Below, in pieces: positions 11,482 through 40,469 of a DNA stretch of 64,000 bases; position 1 is the first letter of the stretch, and every line of letters begins with the position of its first letter. The translations under genes and the position numbers were made by a program. The stretch is taken from positions 2,418 to 66,417 of the forward strand of contig JANRKK010000036.1 in NCBI GenBank assembly GCA_033763555.1, in the 5' to 3' direction. This DNA comes from Alphaproteobacteria bacterium. GTDB taxonomy: Bacteria > Pseudomonadota > Alphaproteobacteria > UBA9219. Under the pieces are notes generated by a model. That model was not told the origin of the DNA. It ran no database searches and saw only the letters and a list, made by a program, of their open reading frames with translations.

Positions 11482-11561
11482 GGCATACCCGTTGAGGCAA
11501 TGCCCCACCCCTTCAGACTAATCCGCCCGGGTTAACGAAAGTTTAAGGTTGATTTCCGGCC

Positions 11562-19336: not shown

Positions 19337-20641
19337 TTAGAAGGTCATCTTTTGCGACAGCATGATCACATAACCTTCGTTGTGATCGTTGCGGTTGGCG
19401 CTCTGGTTAAAGAACACGCCGTCAACTGCCGATGTCAGGCCGGGGAACCATGTGTAGGTCGCACCAGCGCCGTAGGCGTTGAACATGACGTAGTTCGTAC
19501 CATTGACCGTCGAGGCCGTCGTACCGCTGCCACTGCGCAGCAGGTTGCTGTAGCCTTCGCCGTTCAGCCAGTTGGCGGCAACGGACACTTTGTCCATTTC
19601 GTACTTCGCACCAGCCGTCCAGACTTCTTGTTGACGGTTCTGATCGTGCACGGTGCCGTAGCGGCCCATGTCGTTATACGAACCACCGACTGTTACGCCA
19701 GCGTAGGTCACCTGACCACCGAGGCCCCAAGCTGTGAAGTCTTGGAAAGCGGGGTTGCTGGGGTCCGGACCGATGACTGTCGGCGCGTTTTGGAACAGAA
19801 CAGGCAGTGAGCCAGTTGCACCGTCGGGGCTCGAGTCACCTGTGGTGATCTGAGCGCTCAGGACAACGCTGACCGGGTTGAAGTTACCCCAGTAAGCAAT
19901 GTCACCTTCGATGACATCCTGGTACGGCGAGTAGACACGGCTGTTTGCGCTGCCGTTGCCTGTTTCGCTGAACTTGATGATGCTTGAACCGTAGTCATAG
20001 TGGTTTGGAGCATAGGACACGCCCGCCTGCACCTTGTGATTGTCGTTGCCGACTTTCGGGGTGTAGTAGGTGATCTTCGTGCTGTGCTCGGTGTTGTCGA
20101 TGCCGCTCGGCTGGAAGCGGGCGAGGGTCATCGGATCAACGAAGTCCATGTAACGGCCGTCGATTTGGCCTTCACCGACTGTCGGGGCATAAACGAACAG
20201 GTCGGAAGCGCCATGCTCGTCACCGAACAGGGCCTTACCGAACGCGCCGGATGTCCAGACATAGGCGGAGTTGACGGTTACGTTGTTACGGCCGCCGGAC
20301 CAAGGGGTCTGTTCCGGGGAACCGATATTGTCGAAAGCCGGAACGAAGTCGCTGACTTCAGGACCATTCCAGAGACTGATGTTGGCGCCGTATTCGATGC
20401 CGTTGGCAGCTTTGCCCATAGCTTCGACGTTGATTTTGAATTCCGTCAGGAAATCGCGGCTGGAACGCTTTTCGCCGGGTTCGGTGCCGGGCGATTCACG
20501 ATAGAAGCCAGCGACGAAATCGACATAACCGCCCATGTTGACGGTGATCGGCGACGGAGCCGGGGCTGCCTGAGCCGGGCTGGTTGCACCGAAAAGAGCA
20601 ACGCCAACCAAAGCTGTTGTCGCCAGTAGAACTTTACGCAT
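19337..20641 (-). CDS. outer-membrane porin (alphaproteobacterial Porin_2/Omp2/RopA-like)
   Basis: Signal peptide MRKVLLATTALVGVALFGATSPAQA, alternating beta-strand pattern, and a C-terminal aromatic residue (MTF). The SD GGGGGA lies upstream of ATG 20641. Confidence 0.75.
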   Translation of the reverse strand: MRKVLLATTALVGVALFGATSPAQAAPAPSPITVNMGGYVDFVAGFYRESPGTEPGEKRSSRDFLTEFKINVEAMGKAANGIEYGANISLWNGPEVSDFVPAFDNIGSPEQTPWSGGRNNVTVNSAYVWTSGAFGKALFGDEHGASDLFVYAPTVGEGQIDGRYMDFVDPMTLARFQPSGIDNTEHSTKITYYTPKVGNDNHKVQAGVSYAPNHYDYGSSIIKFSETGNGSANSRVYSPYQDVIEGDIAYWGNFNPVSVVLSAQITTGDSSPDGATGSLPVLFQNAPTVIGPDPSNPAFQDFTAWGLGGQVTYAGVTVGGSYNDMGRYGTVHDQNRQQEVWTAGAKYEMDKVSVAANWLNGEGYSNLLRSGSGTTASTVNGTNYVMFNAYGAGATYTWFPGLTSAVDGVFFNQSANRNDHNEGYVIMLSQKMTF

Positions 20642-20913
20642 GTTATCCCCCTCGTGGATGGATGAATGATTGAGACTGCTAGAAGTGACAAAGAGGGCAA
20701 TGCGCCCCGTCCGCGCCAATCTGGTACAGCGAACGTGAACAGACAAGCAGGAAATCAACGAAAAAAGGATTCATCGGGGTTGTGTGGCATCCGCGCAACG
20801 CGCGGGTTAACGCCTATATGATCTTGCAAAATATCGGCTTTTCCGGCATGAGGAGGGGGCGTAAAACGAAATTGGTTAACGCCTGCCGCCGTCCCACAGC
20901 CCCGGATAAAACA

Positions 20914-21441
20914 ATGACCCTCAGGAAAATTCTTGCCGCTACAGCCCTTTTGGCCCTGTTATCCGGTTGCTCAAGCCTGGGTCTCGAAAGCGACGCCACC
21001 TATAACGATAAAGACCGTGAAAAGCTCTATAAACACGGCAGTTTGGTGAGCGAGGAAGGTGGCACCAATTTGCTGGGCGGCGATGATAAAGCCAAGGCAC
21101 TTGAAAATTCCGGCATCGGCGTCAATGGATTTCTCTGGCGCGCGACCCTCGATACCATCTCCTTTATGCCCATATCATCGGCCGATCCTTTCGGTGGCGT
21201 AATCATTACCGATTGGTATTCCACCCCCGAAACGCCGGGCGAGCGCACCAAATTGAACGTCTATATCCGTGACCGTGACCTGCGCGCCGATGGCGTCAAG
21301 GTCGTTGTGTTCCGCCAGACCAAGGAATCGAACGGCGACTGGATTGATGCCGCCATTGCACCGACCACAGGCGGTTCGCTGGAAAATGCGATCCTCACAC
21401 GCGCGCGGCAAATCCGCATGGCGCAAAAACAGTTTCAATAA
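20914..21441 (+). CDS. DUF3576-like lipoprotein
   Basis: [19 protein letters not shown] has a lipobox. The gene is conserved upstream of leuS in alphaproteobacteria. Confidence 0.6.
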
Positions 21442-21452
21442 ATCCCCTTCCT

Positions 21453-24053
21453 ATGACCGAGCGCTACAACGTCCAGGCCGCCGAAACCAAATGGCAGAAA
21501 ATCTGGGCCGACAAAAAAACTTTCCAGGCGACGGAAGATAGGACGAAGCCCAAATATTATGTGATGTCGATGTTCCCCTATCCGTCGGGGCGCATCCATA
21601 TGGGCCATGTGCGGAATTACACTTTGTCGGACGTTGTCGCGCGCTTCAAGCGTGCACAGGGATTTAATGTGTTGCACCCGATGGGCTGGGATGCTTTTGG
21701 CCTGCCCGCCGAGAATGCCGCGCGCGACCGGAAAATTCACCCGGCACAATGGACTTATGAAAACATCAAAAATATGCGAGCCGAACTGGTGCGCATGGGC
21801 CTCGCCATCGACTGGAGCCGCGAGTTCGCGACTTGCGATCCGAGTTATTACAAGCATCAGCAGAAATTATTTCTGGATTTCCTGAAAGTCGGACTCGTCG
21901 ACCGCAAGGAATCCTGGGTCAATTGGGATCCGGTCGATCACACCGTTCTGGCGAATGAACAGGTGATCGACGGCAAGGGCTGGCGCTCCGGCGCTCCGGT
22001 CGAAAAACGCCAGCTTTCACAGTGGTTTTTGAAGATCACCGCCTATGCGGATGAGCTTCTGGCGGCGCTCGGCACACTCGACCGCTGGCCGGAAAAAGTG
22101 CGCCTGATGCAGGAAAACTGGATCGGCAAATCGGCAGGCGCGCGCGTACGTTTCAGCTTAATGGAAACGGCGCAGTCACGGTTGCGCGAAGCGCAGAGTA
22201 GTCGCGCCCAAGATATAGAAGTTTTTACAACGCGCCCCGATACACTCTTCGGTGCCTCCTTCATCGCGCTGTCACCCAACCATCCGCTGGCGGCACAGCT
22301 GGCACAAAAAGACGCGAAGCTTGCGGGCTTCATCGCCGAATGCAACCGCACGGGAACCTCCGAAGCCGTCATCGAGGCCGCAGAAAAAATCGGCTATGAC
22401 ACAGGATTGAAGGCACAGCATGTGTTTGAAGGGCAGGGGGCTTTGCCCGTCTATGTCGCCAATTTCGTTCTGATGGAATATGGGACGGGCGCGATCTTCG
22501 GCTGCCCCGCGCACGACCAGCGCGATCTCGACTTCGCGCGCAAATATAAATTGCCTGTGAAACCCGTTGTGCTGCCGCCTGGCGAAGATGCGAAAAATTT
22601 TGCCGTCGGCACAGAAGCCTATACCGGACCCGGCGTTATTTATAATTCACAATTTCTCGACGGGCTGGAGGTCGAAGCGGCCAAGCAGAAAGCCATCGCC
22701 GAGATTGAAAAACGAAAAGCCGGAACCGGAACTGTGCAATTCCGCCTGCGTGACTGGGGCATCAGCCGCCAGCGTTACTGGGGCTGCCCCATTCCTATTA
22801 TCCATTGCGAAAGCTGCGGCCCGGTGCCTGTGCCGGAAAAAGACCTGCCCGTGCAATTGCCGGAAGATGTGTCTTTCGACAGACCGGGTAATCCGCTTGA
22901 TCATCATCCGACCTGGAAGAATGTCGCCTGCCCGAAATGCAATAAGCCCGCGCGGCGCGAAACGGACACCTGCGACACCTTTGTCGATTCCAGCTGGTAT
23001 TTTGCGCGTTACTGCTCGGCAACCAATTCCGACAAGCCTGTGGAGCGCTCACAGGCGGATTACTGGCTGCCCGTCGATAAATATGTCGGCGGCGTCGAGC
23101 ATGCGATCCTGCACCTGCTCTATTCGCGCTTTTTCACCCGTGCGATGAAAATCACAGGGCATGTCGGCGTTGATGAGCCTTTTGCCGGACTCTTCACGCA
23201 AGGCATGATCTGCCACGAATCCTACAAGGACGAGAAAGGCCAGTGGCTCTACCCCGAAGAGGTGCAGAAAAACGCGGATGGTACAGCGCAGCATGTAAAA
23301 ACGGAGAAGCCTGTAACCGTCGGCCGCAGCGAGACGATGAGCAAGTCGAAAAAGAATGTCGTCGACCCCGGCAAGATCATCGACAGCTACGGCGCCGACA
23401 CGGCACGTTTGTTTATGCTGTCCGACAGCCCGCCGGAGCGCGATCTGGAATGGACAGATGCAGGCGTCGACGGTGCCTGGCGCTATCTCAACCGCATTTG
23501 GCGCAAAGCCGCCGAAGCGCAGTTGCCTCCGGTGGGATCACCTTTGCCGACGCAGTTCACTGATAAGGGCCAGAAAGCCCGTCGCGCCATTCATCGCGCC
23601 ATTGCCGATGTCTCGCGCGCTTTTGAGCAGTTTCATTTCAATGTCGCCGTCGCCCGCGTGCGCGAATTATCAAATGCGCTGGATGAGCTGGATGCCCAGA
23701 GCGCAAACGATATGCATGTTCTGCGCGAAGGGCTGGAAGCCCTGGCGCAGCTGGTTGGGCCGATGCTGCCGCATGTCGCCGAAGATATGTGGGAAAGGCT
23801 TGGCCATAAAACACTGTTGTGCGACACGCCCTGGCCGAAAGCCGACCCGACGCTGCTGATTGATGAAACCGTGACGATCGCCGTGCAGGTGAATGGCAAA
23901 TTGCGCGCAACGATCATGATGCCGCGCAACACGGCGCAAAAAGACGCCGAGGCCGCCGCGCTGGCTGACCCGAATGTTCAGCGTGCGATGGATGGCAAGC
24001 CCGCCAAAAAAATTATTGTCGTGCCCAATAAAATCGTCAATGTGGTGGCATGA
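21453..24053 (+). CDS. leuS: leucine--tRNA ligase
   Basis: [10 protein letters not shown] (HIGH) and KMSKS (MSKSKKN), a CP1 editing domain, 866 aa. Confidence 0.95.
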
Positions 24054-24571
24054 AGAGAACGCTTCGCCTGCACACCCGTTTCCTGTTGCCTGCCTTCTGC
24101 CTTCTGGCCGCTTGCGGATTTCAGCCGATCTATGGCGCGCAGGATAAAACGGGAACGCCCGTCGCCGGGCAGCTGAATCAGATTGCGATCGATAATATTC
24201 CCGAACGCTCCGGCCAGATTCTGCGCAATGAACTGATCGACCGCATGTATGGCCAGGGCCGCCCGCGACAACCGCTTTACAGACTCGAAGTAAAATTGCG
24301 CGCGACGCAGGAAGATCTCGGCCTCCGCGCCAACGCCACATCGACGCGAACCCTGCTGAACATGAATGCCGATTACATCCTGCGCGCAACGCAAGGCAAG
24401 GAATTGCTGCGCGGCACGGCGCACAGCATCACCAATTTCAACCGCCTGAGCACACAATACGGCAATGTCAGCGCGCTGGATGCCGCAACCGAACGCACCC
24501 TGCGCGAGGTGAGCGAGCAGATCGTCAACCGCCTCGCGCTTTATTTTGCCGAGACGGCAACGGCGAACTAG
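24050..24571 (+). CDS. lptE: LPS-assembly lipoprotein LptE
   Basis: It overlaps the leuS stop (ATGA), has the lipobox LLAAC, and its size and position after leuS are canonical. Confidence 0.75.
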
Positions 24572-24689
24572 ATATCTATAGATGCTTCCTTATAAGGTTA
24601 ACGGCAGTTGATAAGGGCTCTTTGTAAGAAAACAACTATTGATTCTAAGTGGTTAATTTCCTGTGCTTAACTTACAAGATGTGCCTGAA

Positions 24690-24731
24690 AATAAAGCTTT
24701 TTCTTGACTTATGCGCTCGCTTTACGGTAGC
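24690..24731 (+). promoter_or_regulatory. putative promoter element copy 1 (AAAGCTTTTTCTTGACTT) upstream of propeller gene 1
   Basis: An 18-nt element with a TTGACT -35-like core lies about 107 nt upstream of ATG 24800. It is 16/18 identical to the element at 26992-27009. Confidence 0.35.
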
Positions 24732-24799
24732 AACGTCCCGCCCATGGGTCACGCGAAAGATTGACCTTGAACTTATAAATTATTGCAAAGTGAGGAATC

Positions 24800-25834
24800 A
24801 TGCGCATCCAGAAATTATTTAAAGCTGTAAAAGATTCTATCTGCGGGCTTGCCGCCCTGTCAGCTGTTGCCCTGTCGCCATACGCAGCACGCGCTCAGGA
24901 TATTATAGAAGTTGAGATTCCCAAGGCTGACGGGGCCGATGTATCCGGACCCACCAGCGCTGGACGCAACATCATATTCCCTATCAACAGGCCTGGCACC
25001 ACAGGTCATCGAATTGGAGTGTTCACGCCGGAGGGACGCCCCTTTGCTGTCTTCGTGCCGACGACTCATGAAGAACAACTTGAAGGCGCCGATGTTAAAA
25101 ACGTCGCCAAAGGCCCTGGCGGTGCCTGGGGTACGCGCTACGATGCAAACGATGTTATCAAGCTCAATCTTGGCAGCGGAAGATTTAAAAAATTTGCCCT
25201 TCCGCCGAACAGCGGTCCTTTTGATCTGGTTCAGGGATCTGGAGGAATGTTTGTTACGCTGAAAATAGCAAACCAGATCGCTAAATTAAATTCCAGGGGA
25301 CAAGTTAAGGCCACATACGATATCCCCACGCCTAACAGCGGCGTTTCCCTTATTGTCAGGGGTGGAGGAGCTTTCAGAACCAGTGTTTTCTTCCTGGAGT
25401 CCAACGTCAATAAGGTGGGTGCATTTAATACTGTTACAGAAACTTTCAATGAATACCCGCTCCCTGCGGCGTGGGGAAAACCGAAGGACATCGCTGTTGA
25501 TCCCAAGACGGGCAATCTTTTGCTCGTTACCGAAAACGGATATTTCGGCAGCATGACCCCAACAGGCAGCTTCACGGCGTTTCCAGAACCCGGTGGAACT
25601 CGCCTCACAGGCGTAGCGGTCGATCCCAAGGGTAAGGTAGCGTGCACAAGCCATCAGGGCGGCACAATCTATTGCGCAACAACCAATGGAGAGCCCCTGG
25701 TAAGCATGCAGGTTCCAACGGATGCTCCCGATCTGATAGGCGTGGCCTTCTTTAGGGGTGGAAAACCGCAGCGGGGTCTTTCTCTCGAAAGAGATCAGGG
25801 ACAAGCGGCGATTTTCCCGGTTCCCAAGCCATAA
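24800..25834 (+). CDS. secreted beta-propeller repeat protein (Vgb/streptogramin-lyase-like or NHL-like), paralog 1
   Basis: It has a signal peptide and repeated blades of the form F.LP...GP.DL..G.DG..W.T...N.I.KL...G....Y..PT..SG. It has an SD GAGGA, and GC is about 50%. Confidence 0.7.
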   Translation: MRIQKLFKAVKDSICGLAALSAVALSPYAARAQDIIEVEIPKADGADVSGPTSAGRNIIFPINRPGTTGHRIGVFTPEGRPFAVFVPTTHEEQLEGADVKNVAKGPGGAWGTRYDANDVIKLNLGSGRFKKFALPPNSGPFDLVQGSGGMFVTLKIANQIAKLNSRGQVKATYDIPTPNSGVSLIVRGGGAFRTSVFFLESNVNKVGAFNTVTETFNEYPLPAAWGKPKDIAVDPKTGNLLLVTENGYFGSMTPTGSFTAFPEPGGTRLTGVAVDPKGKVACTSHQGGTIYCATTNGEPLVSMQVPTDAPDLIGVAFFRGGKPQRGLSLERDQGQAAIFPVPKP

Positions 25835-25855
25835 GCAGCCCTAAAAGCTGCCTTA

Positions 25856-26425
25856 TTAAACTGTAGTCTCGCTGGCTGTATCCAGAGCCATGCGCGCAAT
25901 GGCCAACGAAAATCCTGCGCGCGCCAGAACGGCTAGATCCTTGCGGCGTTGATCGGGCGCAGTTTTACCAGAACGAAAAGCGCCGAGTTTTTTTCGTCGC
26001 GCCAGCTTGCGTGCCGCGGTCAGTTCGACCTCTTCTGACTCCTCGCCTTCAAAAGCCGTGCGAACGATATTCTTGGAAATACCTGCCTGTGCCAGCTTCT
26101 GCTCGATGGCGCGGCGGGAGCGCCCCGCACGGCGCAGGCTGTTCAGCTTGGTTTCCGTGAAAGCCTTGTCATTCAGCACGCCGTTTTTTGTGTGCCGCTC
26201 GATAATGTTGGTTATAGTTTCGCGTAGTTTTTTTTGCGCAACATGGTCGGAAGCGAATGCCGTATCATGCATGGCTGCACGGCGCAGGCGGTTCTCCAGC
26301 ACACGGCGCAAGGCAGCTTCCGACGCCGCATAGCGTGCGAGATAGGCAAGCGCGACCTTGGCAAGCCGTTCGGAAGTCGGGATGGCGTAGCGGCGGGATT
26401 TGCGCTTCATAAGCCCCTGAATCAT
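25856..26425 (-). CDS. recX: recombination regulator RecX
   Basis: LAYLARYAASEAALRRVL... shows the three-repeat helical RecX architecture, 189 aa. Confidence 0.85.
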   Translation of the reverse strand: MIQGLMKRKSRRYAIPTSERLAKVALAYLARYAASEAALRRVLENRLRRAAMHDTAFASDHVAQKKLRETITNIIERHTKNGVLNDKAFTETKLNSLRRAGRSRRAIEQKLAQAGISKNIVRTAFEGEESEEVELTAARKLARRKKLGAFRSGKTAPDQRRKDLAVLARAGFSLAIARMALDTASETTV

Positions 26426-26535
26426 CTTTGCAACACAGGCCGGGAAAGCGCCAAACTTAAACCATTTTTAAGTTTTATAAAGCTTAGGATAAGGCTGTTT
26501 CAGGGATTTGCCGTCATTACTGAACGGAATCCGCC

Positions 26536-26841
26536 ATGCAGAGCGATCAGCATCGTTATTTTATTGAATTACAGCCCGCTGCAGGCGCGACCGTGCCGCG
26601 CAACCGCGAAGACGAAATCCGCCGCGAGCAGGCCGCCCACTTCATCACCGCCATCTATGCCTGGCTGAAAAACAACGCGCTGGGCGACAAGGTTTCCGCC
26701 GTCGCCATGACCGCCTTTGGCCAGGTGCAGATCACCTGCGAAGCCGATGTCATCAGCCGTCTGTCGGACGAGGAAGAGCTGCAGATCGCCGCCATTCGTC
26801 CAAGCGCCCTGTATGTCGAAGGCATGGGACGGCGGTTTTAA
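26536..26841 (+). CDS. hypothetical protein
   Basis: A 101-aa ORF between recX and propeller gene 2; it has a weak RBS and no recognised domain. Confidence 0.4.
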   Translation: MQSDQHRYFIELQPAAGATVPRNREDEIRREQAAHFITAIYAWLKNNALGDKVSAVAMTAFGQVQITCEADVISRLSDEEELQIAAIRPSALYVEGMGRRF

Positions 26842-26989
26842 AAAACGGCGAAGGCAGGAATTGGACGTCAAAAAAATAAATGGCACCTTCAAAGTATCCT
26901 TAACAAAAAATGAGTATGGCCAAACGTTAGAAGAGAAATCGGCTTTGTATCATTAATTTTCTTTAACAACCTTCCCAAAACCAGCGAAA

Positions 26990-27031
26990 GCAAAGCTTTT
27001 CCTTGACCTTCATTTCGGTCATAAGCTAAGA
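26990..27031 (+). promoter_or_regulatory. putative promoter element copy 2 (AAAGCTTTTCCTTGACCT) upstream of propeller gene 2
   Basis: It is 16/18 identical to the element at 24693-24710 and lies about 95 nt upstream of ATG 27087. Confidence 0.35.
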
Positions 27032-27086
27032 ACAGCCTCGTCATGTTGGCCCGCGACGGGCTTAAAAATTATTCAGGAGATAGTCT

Positions 27087-28118
27087 ATGAAAATCAAAGA
27101 ACTTCTTACATCCACAAAACTGGCCGCCTTTGCTACCGCTGCCACTCTGCTCCTGGCACCTCAATCTTCTCGCGCTCAATGGACAAAAGAAGTTTCCGTT
27201 CCATCGGCCCTTGGCGCCATAATGTCGCCGCCCGTCAGTGTTCGACGCAGTGTAGCGTTTGCCGTGAATCACCCCACCTATCAGCAGGTTGTCGTCACAA
27301 CGAGAAATGGTGCGGTGACGTCCACGTCCATACCGGCAACGGTCAGTGAGAAAAACAAAGGACCGGCTGTGACGGATATTGCCGATGGTCCCGGTGGGAT
27401 TTGGTTTACCCAATTCCATCTCGACAAGGTTGGTAGAGCCAGCCGAAGCGGAAATGTTGTTAAATATGCTCTTCCGGAAAACAGCCGTCCGACCGGCCTG
27501 ACTGAGGGACCCAAGCACGACATGTTCGTTGTCCTCCAGGGATCCGATTCCATTGCCCGACTCAAAAGAGGTGTGGTCGTCGCCGAATACAGCGTTCCTA
27601 CGCCGGATAGCGGCTTGGTTCATATCGCCAGCGGTGCCGGCCCTTCTCGTGACAATCTCTTTTTCACAGAGTGGAGAGCCGGTCAGATTGGCATCTTGAA
27701 CGCCAAGACAAATACTATCAGTGAGTATGCGCTTCCTGCGGGATTGCATACACCCACCGATATCACGGTCGATCCGAAAACAGGAAATGCCTGGTTCCGC
27801 GTAGAGGGTGACGCGCAGATCGCCATGATAACGCCGACGGGCAATATCACCGGCTTTGTGATCTCTCCCGAAGGTTATAGCGCCTCGGGCATCGCCGTCA
27901 CCCGTGACGGGGCCGTATGTGCCCCCGTGCCGGAAGCGCATGTGATTGCCTGCATGCAGCGTGATGGAAGTCCCCTGGCCGATATTCGCATCCCGTCGGA
28001 TGGATGCCTGTCAGGCGTTGCTGCTTTCAAGGGACCGCAACACAGTCGGCGCCCCGACATCGCGGTGATTGAAAATTGCGCTGCGCGCGTAGGCTTGGCA
28101 CCAGTACCAACTCCTTAA
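27087..28118 (+). CDS. secreted beta-propeller repeat protein (Vgb/NHL-like), paralog 2
   Basis: It has a signal peptide MKIKELLTSTKLAAFATAATLLLAPQSSRA and is about 35% identical to the 24800..25834 product across shared blade motifs (PTP.SG, VDPKTGN). It has an SD AGGAGA. Confidence 0.7.
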   Translation: MKIKELLTSTKLAAFATAATLLLAPQSSRAQWTKEVSVPSALGAIMSPPVSVRRSVAFAVNHPTYQQVVVTTRNGAVTSTSIPATVSEKNKGPAVTDIADGPGGIWFTQFHLDKVGRASRSGNVVKYALPENSRPTGLTEGPKHDMFVVLQGSDSIARLKRGVVVAEYSVPTPDSGLVHIASGAGPSRDNLFFTEWRAGQIGILNAKTNTISEYALPAGLHTPTDITVDPKTGNAWFRVEGDAQIAMITPTGNITGFVISPEGYSASGIAVTRDGAVCAPVPEAHVIACMQRDGSPLADIRIPSDGCLSGVAAFKGPQHSRRPDIAVIENCAARVGLAPVPTP

Positions 28119-28156
28119 TATATTGCGGACTGCGTAAAGAACGGCGAGCGATTCTC

Positions 28157-31100
28157 TTACGAGATACGCCAGACTTCCATGATGGTGTTTTTCTTGACGG
28201 TCATCGTGCCGCTGGTGTTCTTTTGTATTTGAAGTTTTAAAGTTCCAGCCGTGTTCATGGATACATAACCCATGATTTGAATGGTGTAATTGTTGGTCGT
28301 GCCGCCCAGATTTCCTGTGAAAGATCCTGAGCCCGAAAGAACGTTGCTGGCATCGACGCCGGAGCCGCTTAGCGAAGAGAAACCGGACTCTACTGCCGTA
28401 GCTGTTGCGGCTGTCATGGCAAGCTTCCAGGTGGCGGTGTTGGAAGAGACTATGGTCCCTAAAATTCTGAATCCCCATACGGTTCCCGCGGGCAGGGAAG
28501 CTGATTCACAGCCTGTCACGTCGTAGGTCACCCCAAACGAAGCGGTCGTATAGTCGCTGCCATTGCCGCAATATCCGACCCACCGGTAGAAGCCACCTTC
28601 AGCCGTGGAGGTGTGGTTGTGCGCGGCAGGGGTGCCAGCAGCACCGATCTGGTTCCATGTGCTGCTGTAATAGACTTCCATCGTCGGCACCGTACTGTTG
28701 TACCGAACCATACCATCCGAAGGAGAACCGGGACGCTGGCCCGTCGTACCCGTAGGCAGCAGCATGGCGCCCGTGGTGTTCATGGTGATTTTGCCTGTGC
28801 CCTTCGGCGCGATATTGATATCGATATTGCTGTCCGATCCTATCGCCGAGATGGTAGGGCCATTGCCCGTTGTCGCGCCCGCAATCTGCACATAATTTAC
28901 GCCCGAAGCTGTTGATTGCAGATAGAGCGTTCGACCAGCCGTACTTGTGCTGTTTGTCATGTCTCCTAATAGCAGGTTGCCTATATTTAAATGATAACTT
29001 GTGCTGGACGCAGGCGTATCCACCAGGGCCGTCGTGCCGATCAAGATATTGTTGCTGCCTGTTGTTAAAACAATGGAGCTGACAGATGGCCCAATGGCCA
29101 CATTGTTTGACCCGGTTGTGACGGCTCCCAATGCATCATAACCTAAGGCAACGTTATAGGTTCCGGTCGTGTTTGCATCCAAAGCTGCAGAACCAACCGC
29201 TGTATTGTTGGCGCCGGTTGTACTTGCATCTAAAGCGTTATAGCCAACGGCTGTATTGTAATTTCCGCTGCCGATAGTAGCAGCGGCACCCACGACCGTA
29301 CTATAAGAACCTGTAGTTGAAGCATCCGCTCCCAGGGCAACGCTGTAAGTCGTGCCGCCTGCACTCGCCTGAAAACCAACCGCTGTGTTGTAGGTGCCCG
29401 TCGTGCTGGCCTGTGCGCTGGCGCCCACCGCTGTGTTGCGATGACCGGTTGTAGCTGATGACATTGCACTGTAACCGATCGCCGTATTCAAAATCCCCGT
29501 TGTGTTGCCCGAAAGCGCCGTCGAGCCAATGGCCGTATTAAGAGCTCCGCTCGTGTTGCCATTCAATGCATTCGCACCGAGTGCTACATTGTTTGAGCTT
29601 GATAAGAGGCCAACCCCCGGCCCTGTTATGGATGCCAAGGCACCCGTCCCTATGGCGATGTTCCACACACCGGAAAGAATACCCAAATTGGTCGTAATTG
29701 AAGGAAGAGTTGAAGCGCTTCCAACGACGGTGTTGGCGTTCGTCGTATCCTGCCAGAACATTGTGCCGCCATTGAATTGCAAGACGCCCGCAGAACCAAC
29801 AGGGGCGAAATTCATGTGCTGCGTTGCTGTGGCGCCGCCGACGGCAAGCTTCACAGCGGTGCCGCTCTTGCCCGGTGTGATGGACAGATAATCTACGCCG
29901 CTGGCAATGGTATTCCACCGCTCAACTTCGATGCCGCCTGCGGCAACATTGACGGTATTCGCGCCTGAGCTAAAGAATCCGGTTGTCGCATCGCCCGAAC
30001 GACGCGGGTTAGCTGCCGAAGCCGATGTGCCAAGATCAATGGTCGAAGAACCGCCGCCTGTGCCCAGCGAATTCCATGTGCTGTTGTAATAGGCCTCGAT
30101 AGCTGGCGTCGTGCTGTTGTAACGGATCATGCCCGCCACGCCCGTAGGACGCGTGCCCGTCGTACCAACGGGAAGCAGCACGCTGCTTGTGTGGGCGCTA
30201 ACATCAAGGGCCGTGCCTGTCGTCGGCGCGCTGGGACCGATGGAGAGAGCGCCCGATGTATTCATGACGACCCGGACGGCCGCGGCGGTTCCATCCCAGA
30301 TATAAAGATTGCTGGCATAAGGTGCGCCTGTTGCGGAACCGCCCGTCGATATATTGTAGGTACGGCTGGCCGTCTTCAGTGATAATTCGGAGAAAGCATT
30401 TGTTGCCGTAGTCTCAATAAGAGCTGGTACAGTCTGCCCACTTGCTGAGCTGTAAACATGCAGCTTGTTGCCCGGAGCCGTCGTGCCAATGCCAACCCCG
30501 CCCGTGCCCTTGGGCGTCAGCACGATACCGATATTACTGTCCGAGCCTTGCGCCGAAAGCGCGGGATGCGCCGTGGTCGCTGCGCCTGCCACTTGCAGGT
30601 AATTCACGCCCGACGCCGTCGATTGCAGATAGAGGGTTTTGTTATAGGTTCCCGTGCTGTTGGTCATATCGCCTTGCAGCAGGTTACCGATGTTCAGATT
30701 GTAATTGGTTCCCGCGGCCGCTGTGGTCACAGCGTTGGACGTACCAATCAAAATGTTGTTGCCGCCCGTCGTCAGGGTCGATGAGGCGACACCATAACCG
30801 ATCGCTACGTTATTTGTCCCGGTGGTAATGCTGGAGCCGCTCGACACGCCTATCCCCGTATTGCTGGCCCCGGTTGAATTGCTGACCAATGCGAAATGTC
30901 CAACAGCCGTGTTATCGGCACCAGTTGTGTTGCTTTTTAATGAATCGTAGCCCACAGCAGTGTTACGACTACCTGTTGTAAACGCTAACGCTTCATTACC
31001 TACGGCAACGTTACGAATGCCAGTTGAATTTGTTTTAAGAGCCCACACGCCGAGCGCCGTATTATCAGCGCCGGTCGTATTGGCAGTAAGTGCGATGGTT

Positions 31101-34100
31101 CCAATCCCTATATTTCCATAACCCGTGGTGTTGGCATTCATCGCCTGATAGCCTACGGCGATATTGCCAGAACTGTCAGCAGCCGTAGCGGCCAACGCCT
31201 GATAGCCGATGGCTATATCTATCGTACCCGGTTTCACGCCCGTACCGATGCCGATCGCGGTGGTGGTGGAGGCGGAATAAGTATCCGTCGCACTGCTGGT
31301 ACCAATCAAAATATTATTCGTGCCCGTCGCCAGGGTCGTACTGCCGACCCGATAACCAATGCCGACATTGTTGGTACCTGTGGTGTTGGTTTTTAAGGCT
31401 TCCATTCCCAAGGCCGTATTGAAAGCGCCCGTCGTGTTGCCGATAAGCGCCGATGCGCCCGCGGCCGTATTGCTGGCTCCGGTGGTCGTATTTCTCAGCG
31501 CCTGGGCACCCAGCGCTGTATTGGCTGATGCGCCCGTGGTGACAAAAAGCGCAAAAGAGCCTATCGCCGTACTGTTACCGCTCGTCGCGCTATCTTTCAT
31601 GGCCGATGCGCCAACAGCTGTATTGCTCGTGCCCGTCGTATTGGCATTCAAAGCGCTACTCCCGAGCGCCGTGTTCCAGAGGCCGTTGAAGCCGCCGCCC
31701 GCCTGGGAAATTGTTCCTGAGCCCGCACTCTGACCGACAATCGTATTGGCGGCGCCATCTGACCAGAACATATTGCGGCCGTTGAACTGCAGGGTGCTTG
31801 TGGTGCCCGCCGTGGCGAGATTCAAACCTTGTGTTGCGGTCGCGCCAGCCGCTGCTATCTTGGGATAGGTGCCGCTCTTGCCCGGTGTGATGTCAACATA
31901 ATCGACGCCTGAAGCAATGGTATTCCACCGCATCGCTTCGATGCCACCTGCCGCGACGTTCACGATGTTTGCGCCCGACGTATAGAAACCCGTCGTCGCA
32001 TCGCCCGAACGCTGCGGGTTCGCTGCCGAGGCCGAGGTACCGAGTGTCAGGTTGTTACTGAGCGTGCTGTTGCTGCTCAACAGACTGTTCCAGGTGCTGT
32101 TGTAATAGGCCTCCATGCCCGTCAGCGTTGAATTGTAGCGCACCATGCCGTTGGCAGCCGTAGGACGCTGGCCCGTCGTACCGCCCGGAAGCGTCAGGGC
32201 CGTCGTCGCACTCATGGTCAGAATGCCGGCGCCCTTCGGCGTAAAGGTCATGCTGATATCCGTATCGGAACCTTGCGCCGAAAGCACCGGCGCGGCGCCT
32301 GCCGCAGCACCAGCCACCTGCAGATAATTCACACCCGATGCCGTCGACTGAAGATACAGAGTCTTATTGTAGGTTCCCGTGCTGTTGGTCATATCGCCCT
32401 GCAGCAGGTTGCCGACATTGAGATTGTAATTGGTTCCGGCGGCCGCTGTATCCACCGCGCTCGATGTACCGACAAGGATGTTGTTGGCTCCGGTTGCCAG
32501 AGTTGTCGAAGCGACCTGATAGCCGATCGCGACGTTATTCGTACCTGTCGTGATTTTTGAACCGCCCTGGAAACCGATACCTATATTGGCGACACCTGTC
32601 GTATTGGCGACAAGGGCGCTTGTACCAAAAGCTGCATTGCCAGCGCCTGTCGTATTAGCGGCGAGGGCACTTGTGCCAACGGCTGTATTGGAAGTACCTA
32701 TTGTGTTGCTTTGTAAAGCATTGCCACCCACAGCCGTGTTGAAGAAACCCGTGGTATTGGCATTGAGGGCTTGATAGCCGACGGCTGTATCCAGCCGTCC
32801 GTTAAATCCACCGCCTGTTTGGGAAATCGTCGCAGGCGCGCCGCTGAGCCCTACGATGGTGTTGAAGTTTGTTGCATCCTGCCAGAACATCGTGCTGCCA
32901 TTGAATTGCAGGACACCTGCTGCACCCACCGGGGCAAAATTCAGATGCTGCGTTGATGTCGCGCCAGCAGCGGCGAGCGTCACGGCCGTGCCGCTCTTGC
33001 CTGGTGTAATGGAGAGGTAATCAACACCTGAGGCGATGGTGTTCCAGCGCATCGCCTCGATGCCGCCTGCAGCGACGTTGACGGTGTTCGCGCCCGATGT
33101 GAAGAAGCCGGTTGTCGCATCGCCCGAGCGCTGCGGGTTTGTATCCGAAGTTGAAGTGCCCAAAACCGTGGTTCCGCCGGGAGCGGCGCTGGTCAGCAGT
33201 TCTTCCCAGGATCCGTCGATATAGGCTTCCACGGCTGGCGTATCGCTGTTGTAGCGAATCATGCCGTCCGCTGGTGAAGCTGGCTGTTGACCCGTTGTGC
33301 CACCCGGAAGCGTCAGGGCCGTTGTTGCATTCATGGTCAGAATGCCAGCGCCCTTTGGCGTGAAGGTCATACTGATGTCTGTATCGGAACCTTGCGCTGA
33401 AAACACCGGAGCCGCGCCTGCCGCCGCGCCCGCAATTTGCAAATAATTCACCCCCGACGCTGTCGATTGCAGATAGAGGGTTTTGTTATGCGTGGCATCG
33501 CTGTTGGTCATATCGCCCTGCAGCAGATTGCCAATATTTAAATTATAATTGGTACCATCCGCCGCATCCACGGCATCCGTTGTCCCTATCAGAATATTGT
33601 TCGACCCCGAAGTTAACGTTTGCGAGCCAACGCCATACCCAATGCTCACGTTATAAGAACCATCTTCATTCGCGCCGCCAGCATCACTTCCGATGCCAAT
33701 ATTGCCAACACCGCTCGCGTTGTTCGCAAGGGCGCCGCTGCCAATGGCAGTGTTGTTCGCGCCTGTTGTGAGTTGAAAAAGAGAATTAATACCAATCGCT
33801 GTGTTATAAACACCCGTTGAATTTGCATTAAGGGCGTAATGGCCAACCGCCGTATTGTAGCTGCCTGTTGTATTGTTGTTTAAAGCAGAAAATCCCAAGC
33901 CTGTATTGTTGACACCTTCTGTGTTGAAATAGAGGACTTGAAGACCAACTGCTGTGTTGTTGATGCCCGTTGTATTCGACGCAAGGGCGAGGCCGCCTAC
34001 TGCTGTATTATAATTGCCTTCCGTGTTTGCGCCCAGGGCTTGGTTTCCTACCGCTGTATTGAGGATACCAGTTGTATTGAGCTGAAGCGCTTGCGTGCCT

Positions 34101-36802: not shown

Positions 36803-37021
36803 AAGCTCCCACCCACGCAAGCCTTCTGCGCCCAGGGCGCATGCCGAAAAGGAAGGTGCGTTTCCTGACTGTGCGTTTGAAACGTTAAAAATTGGTCAAA
36901 CCAATGAAATTTCTGGCTTTTCGGCATGCACGCAAAAGTTGAAATGCTGGATTTTCAGCCCTTTTTTGAAGGCAATTTATTTCAAATTGTTAACATCCTG
37001 CAGGCCGTGTATTTCAACGCC

Positions 37022-37492
37022 ATGTCCGCGATCAAAAAACGCCTTGCCGAACTGGGTTTCACGCTGCCGCCGCCCGCGCCTGCCGTTGCGCTCTATGTGC
37101 CCTATGTCGTCACCGGAAATCTGGCCTTTATTTCGGGCCAGATACCGCTGGAAAACGGCCAGGTGAAGCTTACGGGGCGTCTGGGCGCGGAAGTTGATCT
37201 GGCGGCAGGCCAGAAGGCGGCGCAGCTCTGCGCATTGAACATTCTTGCGCAGCTGAACAAAGCCTGCGGTGGCGATCTCGATCGCGTCAAACGATGCGTC
37301 AAGCTGGGCGGATTCGTCGCTTCCGCACCGGATTTCTTTGATCATTCCAAAATCATCAATGGCGCATCGGACGTCATGCAGCAGGTCTTCGGCGAGACTG
37401 GACGGCATGCGCGTTTTGCTGTGGGCGTCAGTACCTTGCCGTTGAATTCAGCCGTGGAAGTCGACGCGGTTTTTGAAATCAACCCAGCCTAG
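37022..37492 (+). CDS. RidA/YjgF/Rid-family protein
   Basis: MSAIKKRLAELGFTLP...ISGQIP...GGDLDRVKRCVKLGGFV...VEVDAVFE shows the YjgF chorismate-mutase-like fold motifs. ATG 37022 was chosen over the longer track ORF. Confidence 0.8.
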   Translation: MSAIKKRLAELGFTLPPPAPAVALYVPYVVTGNLAFISGQIPLENGQVKLTGRLGAEVDLAAGQKAAQLCALNILAQLNKACGGDLDRVKRCVKLGGFVASAPDFFDHSKIINGASDVMQQVFGETGRHARFAVGVSTLPLNSAVEVDAVFEINPA

Positions 37493-39063: not shown

Positions 39064-39197
39064 AACCCGAGTATGCCGGGGAAAGGCTAAAAAAAAGATT
39101 AGGATTTGCCTGCTTTTTAGAGGTCCGTTTCGCAGCTGCGAAAGCCGGAAAAGCCTTGTGCGATGCGATAAACTTGAATGTTCAGGGAATCCGTGGG

Positions 39198-40469
39198 TTA
39201 CCCGGCTTGGGCGGATGCCGCCCAGGGTGGCAGGGCTTCCCAGCCCATCTGCTCGGCCACCGAAATGCGGCGGCGCACCACGGCATAATCACCCCCCGAG
39301 ACCATGATTTCGGGGATAAGGGCACGGCCGTTATAGGCCGAAGCCATGGCGCTGCCATAGGCCCCCGCGAAGGCAATTGCCACCAGATCGCCCGCCGCCA
39401 GATCTGGCAATTCGTAAGCCTCGCCGAACAAATCGGCCGTCTCGCAAACCGGGCCAACGACATCCCATGTCAGGCGCGATGCGGAAGATTCACGCACGGG
39501 CTGGATGCCATGCCGTGCGCCATACATGGCCGGACGCACCAGATCATTCATGCCTGCATCGATGATAAGGAAGTTTTTGGTAACGGCTTTTTTCGCATGG
39601 GTGACACGGCTGACCAGCATGCCTGCCGTCCCCACCAGCAAACGTCCCGGCTCGAAAGCCAATTTGCAATTCAGGGGGCCCAGAATATCGCGCACGAGTT
39701 TTGCGTAATCCGCCAGCGATGCGACTTTCTCGCCGCGATAGGGAATATTCAACCCGCCACCGAGATCAAGCCGCTCGATCGTCACGCCACACGTGCGCCA
39801 GTCCTGCACCAGTCTGGCCAGACGCTCGAACGCTATGCGAAAAGGGCCGTGATCGCTGACATTCGAGCCGATATGCATGGCAAAGCCTTTGAAAGCGAGG
39901 TCGGGCAGGGTGGTTGCCAGCTTCACGGCTTCATCCAGTTGTGCAGGCTCGATGCCGAATTTGCTTTCCTTATGGCCCGTCGCGGTTTTGTCCCAGGTTC
40001 CAGCGGCAACATCCGGATTGACGCGCAACGCCACGGGCGCCGTGCGGCCCAGTTCCACCGCAACCTGGCTGATCAAACGCAATTCGGGAATGGATTCGAC
40101 ATTCAGCTGGTGCAACCCGGCGATCAGGGCTGCCGTGATTTCATTGCGATCTTTGCCGACGCCGGAGAAAACGATTTTTTCAGGATGCACGCCGGCCGCC
40201 AGCGCGCGCTCCATCTCGCCGATGGACGTAATGTCGGCTCCTGCGCCGCATGCGGCCAGTGTTTGAATCACCGCCTGATTGGCATTGGCCTTGACGGCAT
40301 AGCAGATCAGCGGTTTTTCGCCCGCAAAAGCATCGGCGAAGTTTTTGTAATTCGCCTGCAACTGCGCCGTGGAATAAACATAGAAAGGCGTGCCGACCTC
40401 AGCCGCCAGCGCCTCAAGCGAAACCGATTCAGCGGACAGAGCCCCGCCGCGATAGGAAAAAGCGGTCAT
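39198..40469 (-). CDS. lysA: diaminopimelate decarboxylase
   Basis: YAVKAN (PLP Lys), GGGLNIPY and EPGR..VG motifs, 423 aa. Confidence 0.9.
   Translation of the reverse strand: MTAFSYRGGALSAESVSLEALAAEVGTPFYVYSTAQLQANYKNFADAFAGEKPLICYAVKANANQAVIQTLAACGAGADITSIGEMERALAAGVHPEKIVFSGVGKDRNEITAALIAGLHQLNVESIPELRLISQVAVELGRTAPVALRVNPDVAAGTWDKTATGHKESKFGIEPAQLDEAVKLATTLPDLAFKGFAMHIGSNVSDHGPFRIAFERLARLVQDWRTCGVTIERLDLGGGLNIPYRGEKVASLADYAKLVRDILGPLNCKLAFEPGRLLVGTAGMLVSRVTHAKKAVTKNFLIIDAGMNDLVRPAMYGARHGIQPVRESSASRLTWDVVGPVCETADLFGEAYELPDLAAGDLVAIAFAGAYGSAMASAYNGRALIPEIMVSGGDYAVVRRRISVAEQMGWEALPPWAASAQAG

What the first reader, a model, noticed from the sequence alone, without database searches (positions are those of the whole stretch)
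24690..28118. Duplicated promoter and gene pair of Vgb/NHL-like secreted beta-propellers flanking recX
The two propeller genes (24800..25834 and 27087..28118) are about 35% identical paralogs. Each is preceded by a nearly identical 18-nt element, AAAGCTTTTTCTTGACTT versus AAAGCTTTTCCTTGACCT, at a similar distance from the ATG. The coding sequences have diverged while the upstream element is conserved, which suggests a shared regulatory site or promoter under selection. The core gene recX and a small ORF sit between the two copies, which is an odd place for a duplication.
Basis: seen in the sequence. Interest (0 to 1): 0.55.

Follow-up and report, generated by a model that had tools for sequence, protein, structure and literature searches.

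The report
Two inserted propeller genes sharing a promoter
Two distantly related copies of a secreted beta-propeller gene, each with its own copy of the same roughly 230-base control region, were inserted on either side of recX in one uncultured alphaproteobacterium; this is a tidy but fairly ordinary case of accessory genes that kept a shared promoter.

Summary
Two 343/344-aa paralogues are 36% identical (BLASTP E=1e-59). These are the only two matches in 64 kb.

The similarity is wider than the 18-mer. The whole 228/245-nt upstream regions align collinearly (0/300 shuffles score as well). A second conserved block, CTTAWAAATTATT, lies just before each ribosome-binding site. Synonymous sites are near saturation (dS about 2.1-2.5) and omega is about 0.3. 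So both genes and the upstream blocks appear to be under selection.

The block contains an exact CTTGAC, the alphaproteobacterial sigma-70 -35 consensus, behind an A/T tract. A weak -10 lies 18 nt downstream in both. It is most likely a shared promoter, but this is not proven.

Both proteins have the 7-bladed virginiamycin B lyase fold (Pfam PF24684; Foldseek target TM-score 0.86). They lack the catalytic histidines and score far below NCBI's Vgb cut-offs, so they are not streptogramin lyases.

recX is not an intruder. In four related lineages lptE and recX abut, and the small ORF keeps its place beside recX. The propeller genes are therefore two separate insertions. No orthologues were found in about 15 billion proteins. 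Interest is modest.

The parts
24050..24571 (+). lptE, a backbone gene. Its stop codon is the left edge of insertion 1.
   Evidence: Pfam LptE E=6.8e-8. It is 76% aa identical to L120's lptE. DNA homology to L120 runs to 24557.
24572..24799 (+). Upstream (regulatory) region carried by cassette 1. It is AT-rich and absent from relatives.
   Evidence: It has no counterpart in L120, where lptE and recX overlap by 4 nt. It is collinear with 26842-27086.
24653..24659 (+). Distal conserved block TTAATTT (7/7).
24687..24710 (+). Conserved block A, GAAAATAAAGCTTTTTCTTGACTT.
   Evidence: D4, I22. CTTGAC matches the S. meliloti sigma-70 -35 consensus CTTGAC-N17-CTATAT (PMC2873474).
24727..24732 (+). Putative weak -10, GTAGCA, 18 nt after CTTGAC (inferred).
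   Evidence: Read. It has the same spacing and the same xTAxxA pattern as copy 2. The E. coli-type scan did not call it.
24772..24784 (+). Conserved block B, CTTATAAATTATT. This is an A/U-rich stretch 8 nt upstream of the Shine-Dalgarno sequence (GAGGA 24792-24796).
24800..25834 (+). prop1: a 344-aa protein with an N-terminal signal-peptide-like sequence, in the Vgb-lyase-family beta-propeller family.
   Evidence: Pfam PF24684 scores 68.5 bits against a cut-off of 50. The AF2 model (pLDDT 65) hits Vgb first, 2qc5 E=4.7e-16. GC3 is 0.51 against 0.61-0.73 in the neighbours.
25835..25855 (+). Cassette 1 trailer: hairpin GCAGC-CCTAAAA-GCTGC followed by CTTATT. It ends at the recX stop codon.
   Evidence: Read. 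Homology to L120 resumes at the recX stop.
25856..26425 (-). recX, a backbone gene and not part of the duplication.
   Evidence: Pfam RecX_HTH2. It is 70% aa identical to P0153 in L120.
26536..26841 (+). Conserved small ORF (101 aa), a backbone gene divergently paired with recX. Its stop codon is the left edge of insertion 2.
   Evidence: It is 83% aa identical to L120's. It is present next to recX in L120-L124, L149 and L151.
26842..27086 (+). Upstream (regulatory) region carried by cassette 2.
   Evidence: In L120 only 4 nt separate the small-ORF stop from the giant-gene stop. It is collinear with 24572-24799.
26953..26959 (+). Distal conserved block TTAATTT.
26986..27009 (+). Conserved block A, GAAAGCAAAGCTTTTCCTTGACCT. 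The 18-mer is at 26992-27009 and CTTGAC at 27002-27007.
   Evidence: D4, I23.
27026..27031 (+). Putative weak -10, CTAAGA, 18 nt after CTTGAC (inferred).
   Evidence: Read.
27061..27073 (+). Conserved block B, CTTAAAAATTATT, directly upstream of the Shine-Dalgarno sequence (AGGAG 27075-27079).
27087..28118 (+). prop2: a 343-aa protein with an N-terminal signal-peptide-like sequence, a 7-bladed Vgb-lyase-family beta-propeller.
   Evidence: Pfam PF24684 scores 112.9 bits. AF2 gives pLDDT 82.9 and pTM 0.81, with residues 1-30 disordered. Foldseek hits 2z2p/2z2n at E=1.3e-18, target TM-score 0.86.
28119..28156 (+). Cassette 2 trailer, ending at the stop codon of the convergent giant gene.
   Evidence: Read. 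The giant-gene C-terminus is homologous to L120's from its stop codon onward.
28157..36820 (-). Giant 2887-aa ORF, a backbone gene and the right edge of insertion 2.
   Evidence: It has no Pfam hit. Counterparts of more than 3000 aa occur in L122/L124. L120 holds only the last ~1008 residues of its counterpart, cut by the contig end. There is partial DNA homology to L120.

Best explanation
An uncultured alphaproteobacterium carries two lineage-specific accessory gene cassettes. Each is about 1.3 kb. Each holds a 230-245-nt regulatory region, a gene for a Sec-secreted 7-bladed beta-propeller of the virginiamycin-B-lyase (Vgb) Pfam family, and a short trailer.

Each cassette sits exactly between the stop codons of a convergent gene pair. 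One lies at lptE><recX and the other at small ORF><giant gene. The backbone around them is otherwise conserved.

The two cassettes descend from one ancestral promoter-plus-gene unit. The proteins have diverged to 36% identity, yet islands of the control region have been kept by selection.

It is most likely the -35 hexamer CTTGAC of an RpoD-type promoter plus the A/T-rich tract just upstream of it. A weak -10 ([C/G]TA..A) lies 18 nt downstream. Transcription would then start near 24739 and 27038.

The second island, CTTAWAAATTATT, would be an A/U-rich leader segment next to the ribosome-binding site. Both genes would therefore be transcribed and translated under the same control.

The proteins probably bind or process an extracytoplasmic ligand. 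They are not streptogramin lyases.

Shown: the paralogy, the fold, the insertions, and conservation above neutral expectation. Inferred: promoter identity, start sites, co-regulation and protein function.
For: Paralogy and constraint:
- The proteins are 36% identical, E=1e-59.
- dN=0.64, dS=2.1-2.5 and omega about 0.3.

Fold:
- PF24684 scores are above its gathering cut-off for both.
- Vgb is the top structural hit for both models.

Secretion:
- N-terminal K/R residues, then a hydrophobic stretch, then ARA|Q / SRA|Q.
- Residues 1-30 are disordered in the model.

Insertions:
- In L120/121, L122/123, L124 and L151, lptE and recX 3' ends overlap by 4-61 nt.
- In L120 the small-ORF stop is 4 nt from the giant-gene stop.
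- blastn homology to L120 (74-79%) stops at 24557 and 26841 and resumes at 25881. Read by eye, it reaches each stop codon.
- GC3 of the two genes is 0.51-0.55 against 0.61-0.73 for the neighbours.

No orthologues:
- The word-index search found only prop2 itself and one weak partial hit.
- The full HMMER profile search of 1.84 billion representatives gave no other full-length 340-aa match in the top 150.

Regulatory region:
- The whole upstream regions are collinear, score 72.5 against 25.5 +/- 6.3.
- Block A is 20/24 identical and block B 12/13, while third codon positions are only 36% identical.
- The 18-mer is unique to these two sites in 64 kb.

Promoter reading:
- There is an exact CTTGAC, the alphaproteobacterial sigma-70 -35 consensus (PMC2873474).
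- The spacing to a TA-containing hexamer is the same (18 nt) in both copies.
- Across 140 unrelated public occurrences of AAAGCTTTTYCTTGAC, a 5/6-or-better TATAAT lies 16-18 nt downstream in 7.1%, against 1.4% at control offsets.

No RNA element:
- There are no Rfam hits.
- Folding z-scores run from -0.97 to +0.61.
- There is no consensus structure.
Against: - The -10 candidates (GTAGCA, CTAAGA) match CTATAT/TATAAT at only 2-3 of 6 positions and lack the final T. The spacer is 18 nt, not 17.
- The consensus scan did not call a promoter at either site.
- No transcript data exist.
- With only two sequences, 'selection' rests on comparison with saturated synonymous sites. A short gene-conversion tract cannot be excluded.
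- The rest of the genome could not be scanned. The motif could be more widespread in it, or part of a regulon.
- Two independent insertions of anciently diverged paralogues within 1.3 kb of each other are unexplained. No target-site duplications, terminal repeats, tRNA or recombinase were found.
Confidence: 0.6

Rival explanations
1. The conserved block is mainly the operator of a dimeric transcription factor, either a repressor or a class II-type activator, that overlaps the -35. The core is the dyad AAARNAAAG|CTTTNYNTT centred on the palindrome AAAGCTTT. The two genes would form a small dedicated regulon. This does not exclude a promoter at the same place.
For: - Both copies are imperfect 18-20-bp palindromes, 13-nt arms 85% complementary (I22 and I23).
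- Seven of 10 symmetric positions pair in each copy.
- One symmetric pair changes on both sides: A24691:T24702 in copy 1 against G26990:C27001 in copy 2 (read).
- The weak -10 fits an activator-dependent promoter.
- The dyad pattern has no other match in the window below 3 mismatches.
Against: - A/T-rich runs are easily self-complementary.
- One compensatory pair in two sequences is anecdotal.
- The 3-mismatch dyad search is not enriched: 9 found against 5.1 expected.
- No candidate regulator gene lies beside either cassette.
- The known alphaproteobacterial CtrA box TTAA-N7-TTAAC is not met; the spacers are 10 and 6.
Confidence: 0.25
2. The shared upstream blocks are not functional. They are either chance survivors of the original duplication or the product of a recent short gene-conversion tract between the two copies.
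For: - There are only two sequences, so there is no phylogenetic replication.
- Fourfold sites within conserved codons are still 42% identical against 26% expected from composition. Divergence is therefore not completely saturated.
- The copies lie only 2.3 kb apart in direct orientation, which favours conversion.
Against: - At 42% per-site identity, I calculate that a 16/18 block has a probability of about 5e-5 per position, or about 0.01 over the region. A second collinear 12/13 block makes the joint chance about 1e-3.
- The conserved blocks fall at functionally meaningful places, a -35-type hexamer and the flank of the Shine-Dalgarno sequence. They keep their order and near-identical spacing to the ATG.
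- A conversion tract would be expected to be 100% identical and to have sharp edges. Block A instead has 4 scattered differences in 24 nt.
Confidence: 0.1
3. This is the first reader's picture: a local tandem duplication of promoter plus gene, into which recX and the small ORF later moved.
For: The two copies have the same orientation, lie close together and are flanked by similar upstream regions.
Against: - recX and the small ORF keep their ancestral neighbours, order and orientation relative to lptE and the large surface-protein gene in four related lineages that have no propeller genes.
- Paralogue dS (2.1-2.5) exceeds the backbone dS between the window and L120 for lptE, small ORF and leuS (0.8-1.0); recX is the exception at 2.0. 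L120 nonetheless has neither copy.
Confidence: 0.04
4. The genes are streptogramin B (virginiamycin B) lyase resistance genes.
For: They have a Pfam Vgb_lyase hit above the cut-off. Vgb is the best PDB sequence and fold match.
Against: - NCBIfam Vgb(A)/Vgb(B) scores are 38-93 bits against a cut-off of 600.
- In HMMER's register, Vgb residue 270 (the catalytic His, Ala in 2z2p) aligns to Thr224, Glu268 to Thr222 and His228 to Val178 of prop2.
- No blade of either protein has His at the P-x-G-I-T position (by reading).
- Both proteins have export signal sequences, whereas Vgb is cytoplasmic (my own knowledge).
Confidence: 0.03

Closest known systems
Virginiamycin B (streptogramin B) lyase Vgb, S. 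aureus / S. cohnii (PDB 2z2n, 2z2o, 2z2p, 2qc5; Pfam PF24684)
   Same: It has the same 7-bladed beta-propeller fold: target TM-score 0.86, rmsd 2.8-2.9 A over about 312 columns, 22% identity for prop2. The same blade sequence motif recurs (P-x-G-I-T ... W-F-T-E ... I-G-R), giving a PDB sequence E-value of 1e-28 to 1e-30.
   Different: - The Mg2+/catalytic residues in blades 6-7 (His228, Glu268, His270; numbering from memory of Korczynska et al. 2007) are not conserved. H270 is confirmed as catalytic by the 2z2p entry title, and the blade 6-7 site by PMC8916777. Only the Glu284 equivalent is kept.
- Both window proteins carry N-terminal signal peptides, an N-terminal blade of about 70 aa and C-terminal blades without the Vgb motif.
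- NCBIfam AMR models score about a tenth of their cut-offs.
Alphaproteobacterial sigma-70 (RpoD) promoters, consensus CTTGAC-N17-CTATAT (S. meliloti; cited in PMC2873474)
   Same: There is an exact CTTGAC in both copies, preceded by an A/T-rich tract at the position of a proximal UP-element subsite. A TA-containing hexamer lies at a fixed distance downstream.
   Different: The spacer is 18 nt, not 17. The -10 matches only 2-3 of 6 positions, with no terminal T. No experimental start site exists.
Multi-domain surface proteins with repeated Vgb-like propellers (top hits of the representative search, 900-3300 aa)
   Same: They share the central four blades (profile positions about 100-285), with summed scores up to 325 bits.
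   Different: Those are giant multi-propeller proteins. The window proteins are single-propeller, 340-aa secreted proteins. Their N- and C-terminal thirds have no full-length counterpart in the top 150.

Membership tests
Pfam PF24684 Vgb_lyase family (beta-propeller) | Score above the family's gathering threshold (50 bits). | tested here: met
   prop1 scores 68.5 bits and prop2 112.9 bits.
Pfam PF24684 Vgb_lyase family (beta-propeller) | Seven-bladed beta-propeller fold superimposable on Vgb. | tested here: met
   The prop2 model (pLDDT 82.9) has 7 four-stranded blades. Foldseek hits 2z2n at E=1.4e-18, target TM-score 0.87. The prop1 model hits 2qc5 at E=4.7e-16, target TM-score 0.76, but that model is of lower confidence (pLDDT 65).
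Streptogramin B lyase Vgb(A)/Vgb(B) (functional resistance enzyme) | NCBIfam AMR model score at or above the curated cut-off (600 bits). | tested here: not met
   Scores are 38.2-93 bits.
Streptogramin B lyase Vgb(A)/Vgb(B) (functional resistance enzyme) | Catalytic/Mg2+-site residues in blades 6-7 (His228, Glu268, His270, Glu284). | tested here: not met
   In the HMMER alignment to 2z2p, H228 aligns to V178, E268 to T222, residue 270 to T224 and E284 to E240 of prop2. In the alternative, structural register the equivalent positions are Ser267, Cys307/Leu308, Ser309 and Glu329, by motif reading. prop1 has Phe, Val/Ser, Lys, Thr or Ile at the His positions. The residue-level structural alignment was not printed by the tool, so the second register rests on inspection.
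Streptogramin B lyase Vgb(A)/Vgb(B) (functional resistance enzyme) | Mg2+-dependent linearisation of streptogramin B. | not testable with these tools
   This needs a biochemical assay.
Sigma-70 (RpoD)-type promoter | A -35 hexamer matching TTGACA / CTTGAC. | tested here: met
   CTTGAC lies at 24703-24708 and 27002-27007. The consensus is taken from PMC2873474.
Sigma-70 (RpoD)-type promoter | A -10 hexamer (TATAAT / CTATAT) 16-18 nt downstream. | tested here: inconclusive
   GTAGCA and CTAAGA lie at 18 nt and match only 2-3 of 6 positions. They were not called by the consensus scan.
Sigma-70 (RpoD)-type promoter | A mapped transcription start 5-9 nt downstream of the -10. | not testable with these tools
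   No transcriptome exists for this MAG.
Structured cis-regulatory RNA (riboswitch or leader) | An Rfam match, or a stable and conserved secondary structure in the 5' UTR. | tested here: not met
   There are no Rfam hits at E<=1 over 20000-32000. Folding z-scores are +0.16, -0.66, +0.61 and -0.97. RNAalifold predicts 0 pairs.
Mobile element (IS/MITE/integron cassette/genomic islet) | Terminal inverted repeats, target-site duplication, an attC-like site, an adjacent tRNA or a recombinase. | tested here: not met
   No repeats flank the inserts. There is no tRNA in 20000-40000. No transposase or integrase ORF lies within or beside the 1.3-kb inserts.
CtrA-regulated promoter (Alphaproteobacteria) | A TTAA-N7-TTAAC box. 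| tested here: not met
   The TTAA...TTAAC spacers are 10 nt (24653/24667) and 6 nt (26953/26963). The only exact box in the window is at 11531-11546.

The most novel reading that the evidence does not exclude
The two 1.3-kb units could be copies of a previously undescribed kind of self-contained 'promoter plus gene' cassette. Such a cassette would be moved, by an unknown mechanism that leaves no repeats, precisely into the stop-to-stop junction of convergent genes. The conserved 230-nt upstream region would then serve both as the promoter and as the recognition sequence for that mobility. A milder form of this reading is that the region is the operator of a dedicated regulator. That regulator would control an orphan pair of fast-evolving secreted propellers used against a host or prey.
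Probability: 0.05. Interest if true: 0.6.

Novelty: new member of a known kind. Interest (0 to 1): 0.27.

Why it matters
The result corrects the evolutionary picture. recX is in its ancestral place, and the propeller genes are the newcomers.

It gives a small, clean example of non-coding control sequence outlasting saturated synonymous sites between paralogues. This pins down a testable promoter or operator in a lineage with no cultured member.

It also warns against annotating these genes as streptogramin-resistance lyases. They share the Vgb fold but not its catalytic site, and they are exported.

Beyond that, the finding is ordinary: accessory secreted proteins with a shared sigma-70-like promoter.

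Tried and rejected
1. I scanned 185,579 species genomes for the 18-mer. It returned at least 119 scattered hits in unrelated phyla, roughly the chance number (about 70 for uniform composition, by my calculation).
2. I scanned the metagenomes for the 22-mer GAAANNAAAGCTTTTYCTTGAC. None of the 24 hits lay next to a propeller homologue or had other similarity to the upstream regions. The hits served only as a generic test that such sequences are sometimes real -35 regions.
3. A structured RNA or riboswitch in the leaders is rejected.
4. No third paralogue exists in the window. The 343-aa ORF at 43535-44566(-) is unrelated.
5. The phage receptor-binding protein idea fails. BFVD gives only generic propellers at 8-14% identity, weaker than Vgb.
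6. A CtrA box has the wrong spacing. LexA (GTTC-N7-GTTC), Pho box, RpoH and ECF motifs were checked by eye, and none fits both copies.
7. Block B as a -10 element is unlikely. No -35-like hexamer lies at 16-18 nt in either copy. Block-B-like A/T runs also occur upstream of recX (26460-26472, -) and at 43266-43278 (-).
8. No mobile-element signatures were found at the insert edges.
9. The 1609-aa NHL/RCC1 protein in relative L151 was tested as a possible source of the propellers. It has no significant similarity to them.
10. The afdb50 fold library was unavailable. The Korczynska et al. 2007 paper is not held. A first literature search on residue names returned only irrelevant papers.

Full report
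**Observation**

The region holds two intact + strand ORFs, 24800..25834 (344 aa) and 27087..28118 (343 aa). Each has a good Shine-Dalgarno sequence. They are 36% identical over their full length, BLASTP E=1e-59.

The reported element is present at 24693-24710 (AAAGCTTTTTCTTGACTT) and 26992-27009 (AAAGCTTTTCCTTGACCT). It starts 107 and 95 nt before the start codons. At up to three mismatches these are the only two matches on either strand of the 64-kb window, against 0.08 expected. A 16/18 match between shuffled versions of the two upstream regions arose in 2 of 400 trials.

**The similarity is wider than the 18-mer**

- The block extends leftwards to 20/24 identical (24687-24710 / 26986-27009, family D4).
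- A second block, CTTAWAAATTATT (12/13), lies 26-28 nt before each ATG, next to the ribosome-binding site.
- A third block, TTAATTT, lies about 40 nt upstream of the first.
- The complete intergenic regions (228 and 245 nt) align collinearly at 61% identity. The global score is 72.5 against 25.5 +/- 6.3 for shuffles, with none of 300 as good.

The duplicated unit was therefore promoter region plus gene, not the gene alone.

**Is the non-coding conservation more than residual similarity?**

- Third codon positions are only 36% identical, against 26% expected from composition.
- Fourfold sites inside conserved codons are 42% identical.
- Nei-Gojobori dS is 2.1-2.5, near saturation, with dN 0.64 and omega about 0.3.
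- Both genes are therefore under purifying selection, and neutral sites have largely randomised.
- At 42% per-site identity I calculate a 16/18 block to have a probability of about 5e-5 per position, or about 0.01 over the region. A second collinear 12/13 block brings the joint chance to about 1e-3.

Selection on the blocks is the best reading. With only two sequences, a short gene-conversion tract cannot be ruled out.

**What the proteins are**

- Both pass the gathering threshold of Pfam PF24684, the virginiamycin B lyase family: 68.5 and 112.9 bits against 50.
- The AlphaFold model of prop2 (pLDDT 82.9, pTM 0.81) is a seven-bladed propeller with a disordered residue 1-30 segment.
- Its best PDB matches are the S. 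aureus and S. cohnii Vgb structures, E about 1e-18, target TM-score 0.86-0.87, 22% identity.
- The weaker prop1 model (pLDDT 65) gives the same top hits.
- Both N-termini have a basic stretch, a hydrophobic stretch and an ARA|Q or SRA|Q motif. I read this as a Sec signal peptide.

They are not streptogramin lyases.

- NCBI's Vgb(A)/Vgb(B) models score 38-93 bits against a cut-off of 600.
- In the HMMER alignment to 2z2p, the catalytic position 270 aligns to Thr, Glu268 to Thr and His228 to Val. Only Glu284 is kept.
- No blade of either protein has His at the corresponding P-x-G-I-T position (read).
- That the Vgb active site lies in blades 6-7 is stated in PMC8916777. H270 as catalytic is in the 2z2p entry title. 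The other residue numbers come from my memory of Korczynska et al. 2007.
- Viral structure matches are generic propellers, so a phage receptor-binding origin is not supported.

**No orthologues**

- A word-index search of 5.8 billion clusters found only prop2 itself and one weak partial hit (E=4.7e-7, 26% identity over 21% of the query).
- A full HMMER profile search of 1.84 billion representatives returned the two paralogues. After them came only giant multi-propeller proteins, or short proteins matching just the central blades.
- The window has no third copy.

The pair is an orphan subfamily, and each member is the other's closest known relative.

**Genomic history**

RecX homologues led to related contigs:

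| Locus | RecX identity to window | Source call |
|---|---|---|
| L120/L121 | 70% | 28 |
| L122/L123 | 59% | 29 |
| L124 | 60% | 30 |
| L151 | 60% | 60 |

- L122/L123 and L124 show full leuS-lptE then convergent recX, a divergent small ORF of 82-103 aa, and then a very large secreted or surface protein gene. The short L120/L121 and L151 contigs show the same order from lptE onward.
- None has a propeller gene.
- lptE and recX overlap by 4-61 nt in all four lineages.
- In L120 the small-ORF stop is 4 nt from the giant-gene stop.
- Window DNA is 74-79% identical to L120 up to 24557, from 25881 to 26841, and again inside the giant gene. By eye the homology reaches each stop codon.

The propeller cassettes (24572-25855 and 26842-28156) are therefore two separate insertions, each exactly between the stop codons of a convergent pair. 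recX and the small ORF never moved.

Paralogue dS (above 2) exceeds the backbone dS to L120 for lptE, the small ORF and leuS (0.8-1.0); recX is the exception at 2.0. The copies therefore probably diverged before this lineage split from L120's, yet L120 has neither. GC3 of the two genes (0.51 and 0.55) is below that of the neighbours (0.61-0.73).

Acquisition or relocation after the split is the parsimonious reading. The mechanism is unknown. I found no flanking repeats, tRNA or recombinase.

The slot next to the small ORF is variable in other lineages too. It holds a 68-aa ORF in L122 and a Fic gene in L124. In L151 the neighbouring large gene is an unrelated NHL/RCC1 protein.

**Mechanism of the element**

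- Both copies contain an exact CTTGAC. This is the -35 half of the alphaproteobacterial sigma-70 consensus CTTGAC-N17-CTATAT (PMC2873474).
- It is preceded by an A/T-rich tract where a proximal UP-element subsite would lie.
- Eighteen nucleotides downstream both have a TA-containing hexamer, GTAGCA at 24727-24732 and CTAAGA at 27026-27031. These are weak -10 candidates at identical spacing.
- The E. coli-style scan did not call them.
- As a generic check, I examined 140 unrelated public occurrences of AAAGCTTTTYCTTGAC gathered from two otherwise uninformative collection scans. A 5/6-or-better TATAAT lies 16-18 nt downstream in 7.1%, against 1.4% at control offsets. Such sequences are therefore sometimes used as -35 regions.
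- I put the promoter reading at about 0.55-0.6.

The main rival is not exclusive of the promoter reading. It is a dimeric regulator's operator.

- Both copies are imperfect palindromes centred on AAAG|CTTT (I22 and I23).
- One symmetric pair changes from A:T to G:C between the copies.
- The weak -10 would suit an activator-dependent promoter.
- This evidence is anecdotal.

Block B is best read as an A/U-rich leader segment beside the Shine-Dalgarno sequence, a possible translational enhancer. This is inference only.

No structured RNA is indicated.

**Verdict**

- The evolutionary story is corrected: two insertions into a conserved backbone.
- The proteins are exported Vgb-fold propellers of unknown ligand, not lyases.
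- This is a new member of known kinds, of modest interest.
- The one unexplained point is how two anciently diverged paralogues came to be inserted at two neighbouring stop-to-stop junctions.

Noticed in passing
window 28157-36820 (-): A giant 2887-aa ORF with long internal repeats and no Pfam hit. A counterpart occupies the same position next to small ORF-recX in L120 (only its last ~1008 residues, cut by the contig end), L122 and L124 (>3000 aa). In L151 the slot holds an unrelated 1609-aa NHL/RCC1 secreted protein.
   Followed up: partly
window 26536-26841 (+): A 101-aa ORF of unknown function, 83% identical to L120's. It is divergently paired with recX in every relative examined, including L149, where the rest of the synteny differs. 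A weak precomputed Pfam 'PopD' (PF27478) hit is recorded there.
   Followed up: partly
L122 9351-9557; L124 8413-9519; window 26842-28156: The junction between the giant gene and the small ORF is a variable slot across lineages. It holds 4 nt in L120, a 68-aa ORF in L122, a Fic/DUF4172 gene in L124 and prop2 in the window.
   Followed up: partly
L120 4007-4010; L122 10531-10561; L124 10525-10585; L151 6549-6552: In the relatives the convergent lptE and recX genes overlap at their 3' ends by 4-61 nt. Insertion 1 in the window separates them by 1284 nt.
   Followed up: yes
window 24574-24602: Three perfect palindromes stand back to back right after the lptE stop, at the left edge of insertion 1: ATCTATAGAT (24574-24583), CCTTATAAGG (24588-24597) and GTTAAC (24597-24602). 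The left edge of insertion 2 has no equivalent.
   Followed up: no
window 24687-24706 and 26986-27005: There is dyad symmetry around AAAG|CTTT in both copies, with 7 of 10 positions pairing. The A:T pair at 24691/24702 is replaced by a G:C pair at 26990/27001.
   Followed up: partly
window 26460-26472 (-) and 43266-43278 (-): Block-B-like A/T runs (CTTAAAAATGGTT and CTTAAAAATGATT) lie upstream of recX and in another intergenic region. The first lies in a stretch that is also conserved in L120.
   Followed up: no
window 28187-28201 (+): TGTTTTTCTTGACGG lies inside the giant gene's coding region on the opposite strand. It is a 12/15 partial match to the -35 block and is probably chance.
   Followed up: no
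window 24761-24768: prop1's leader contains a second TTGACCTT, identical to the 8-mer of prop2's block A (27003-27010). It lies 39 nt before the ATG and has no -10-like hexamer at a suitable distance.
   Followed up: no
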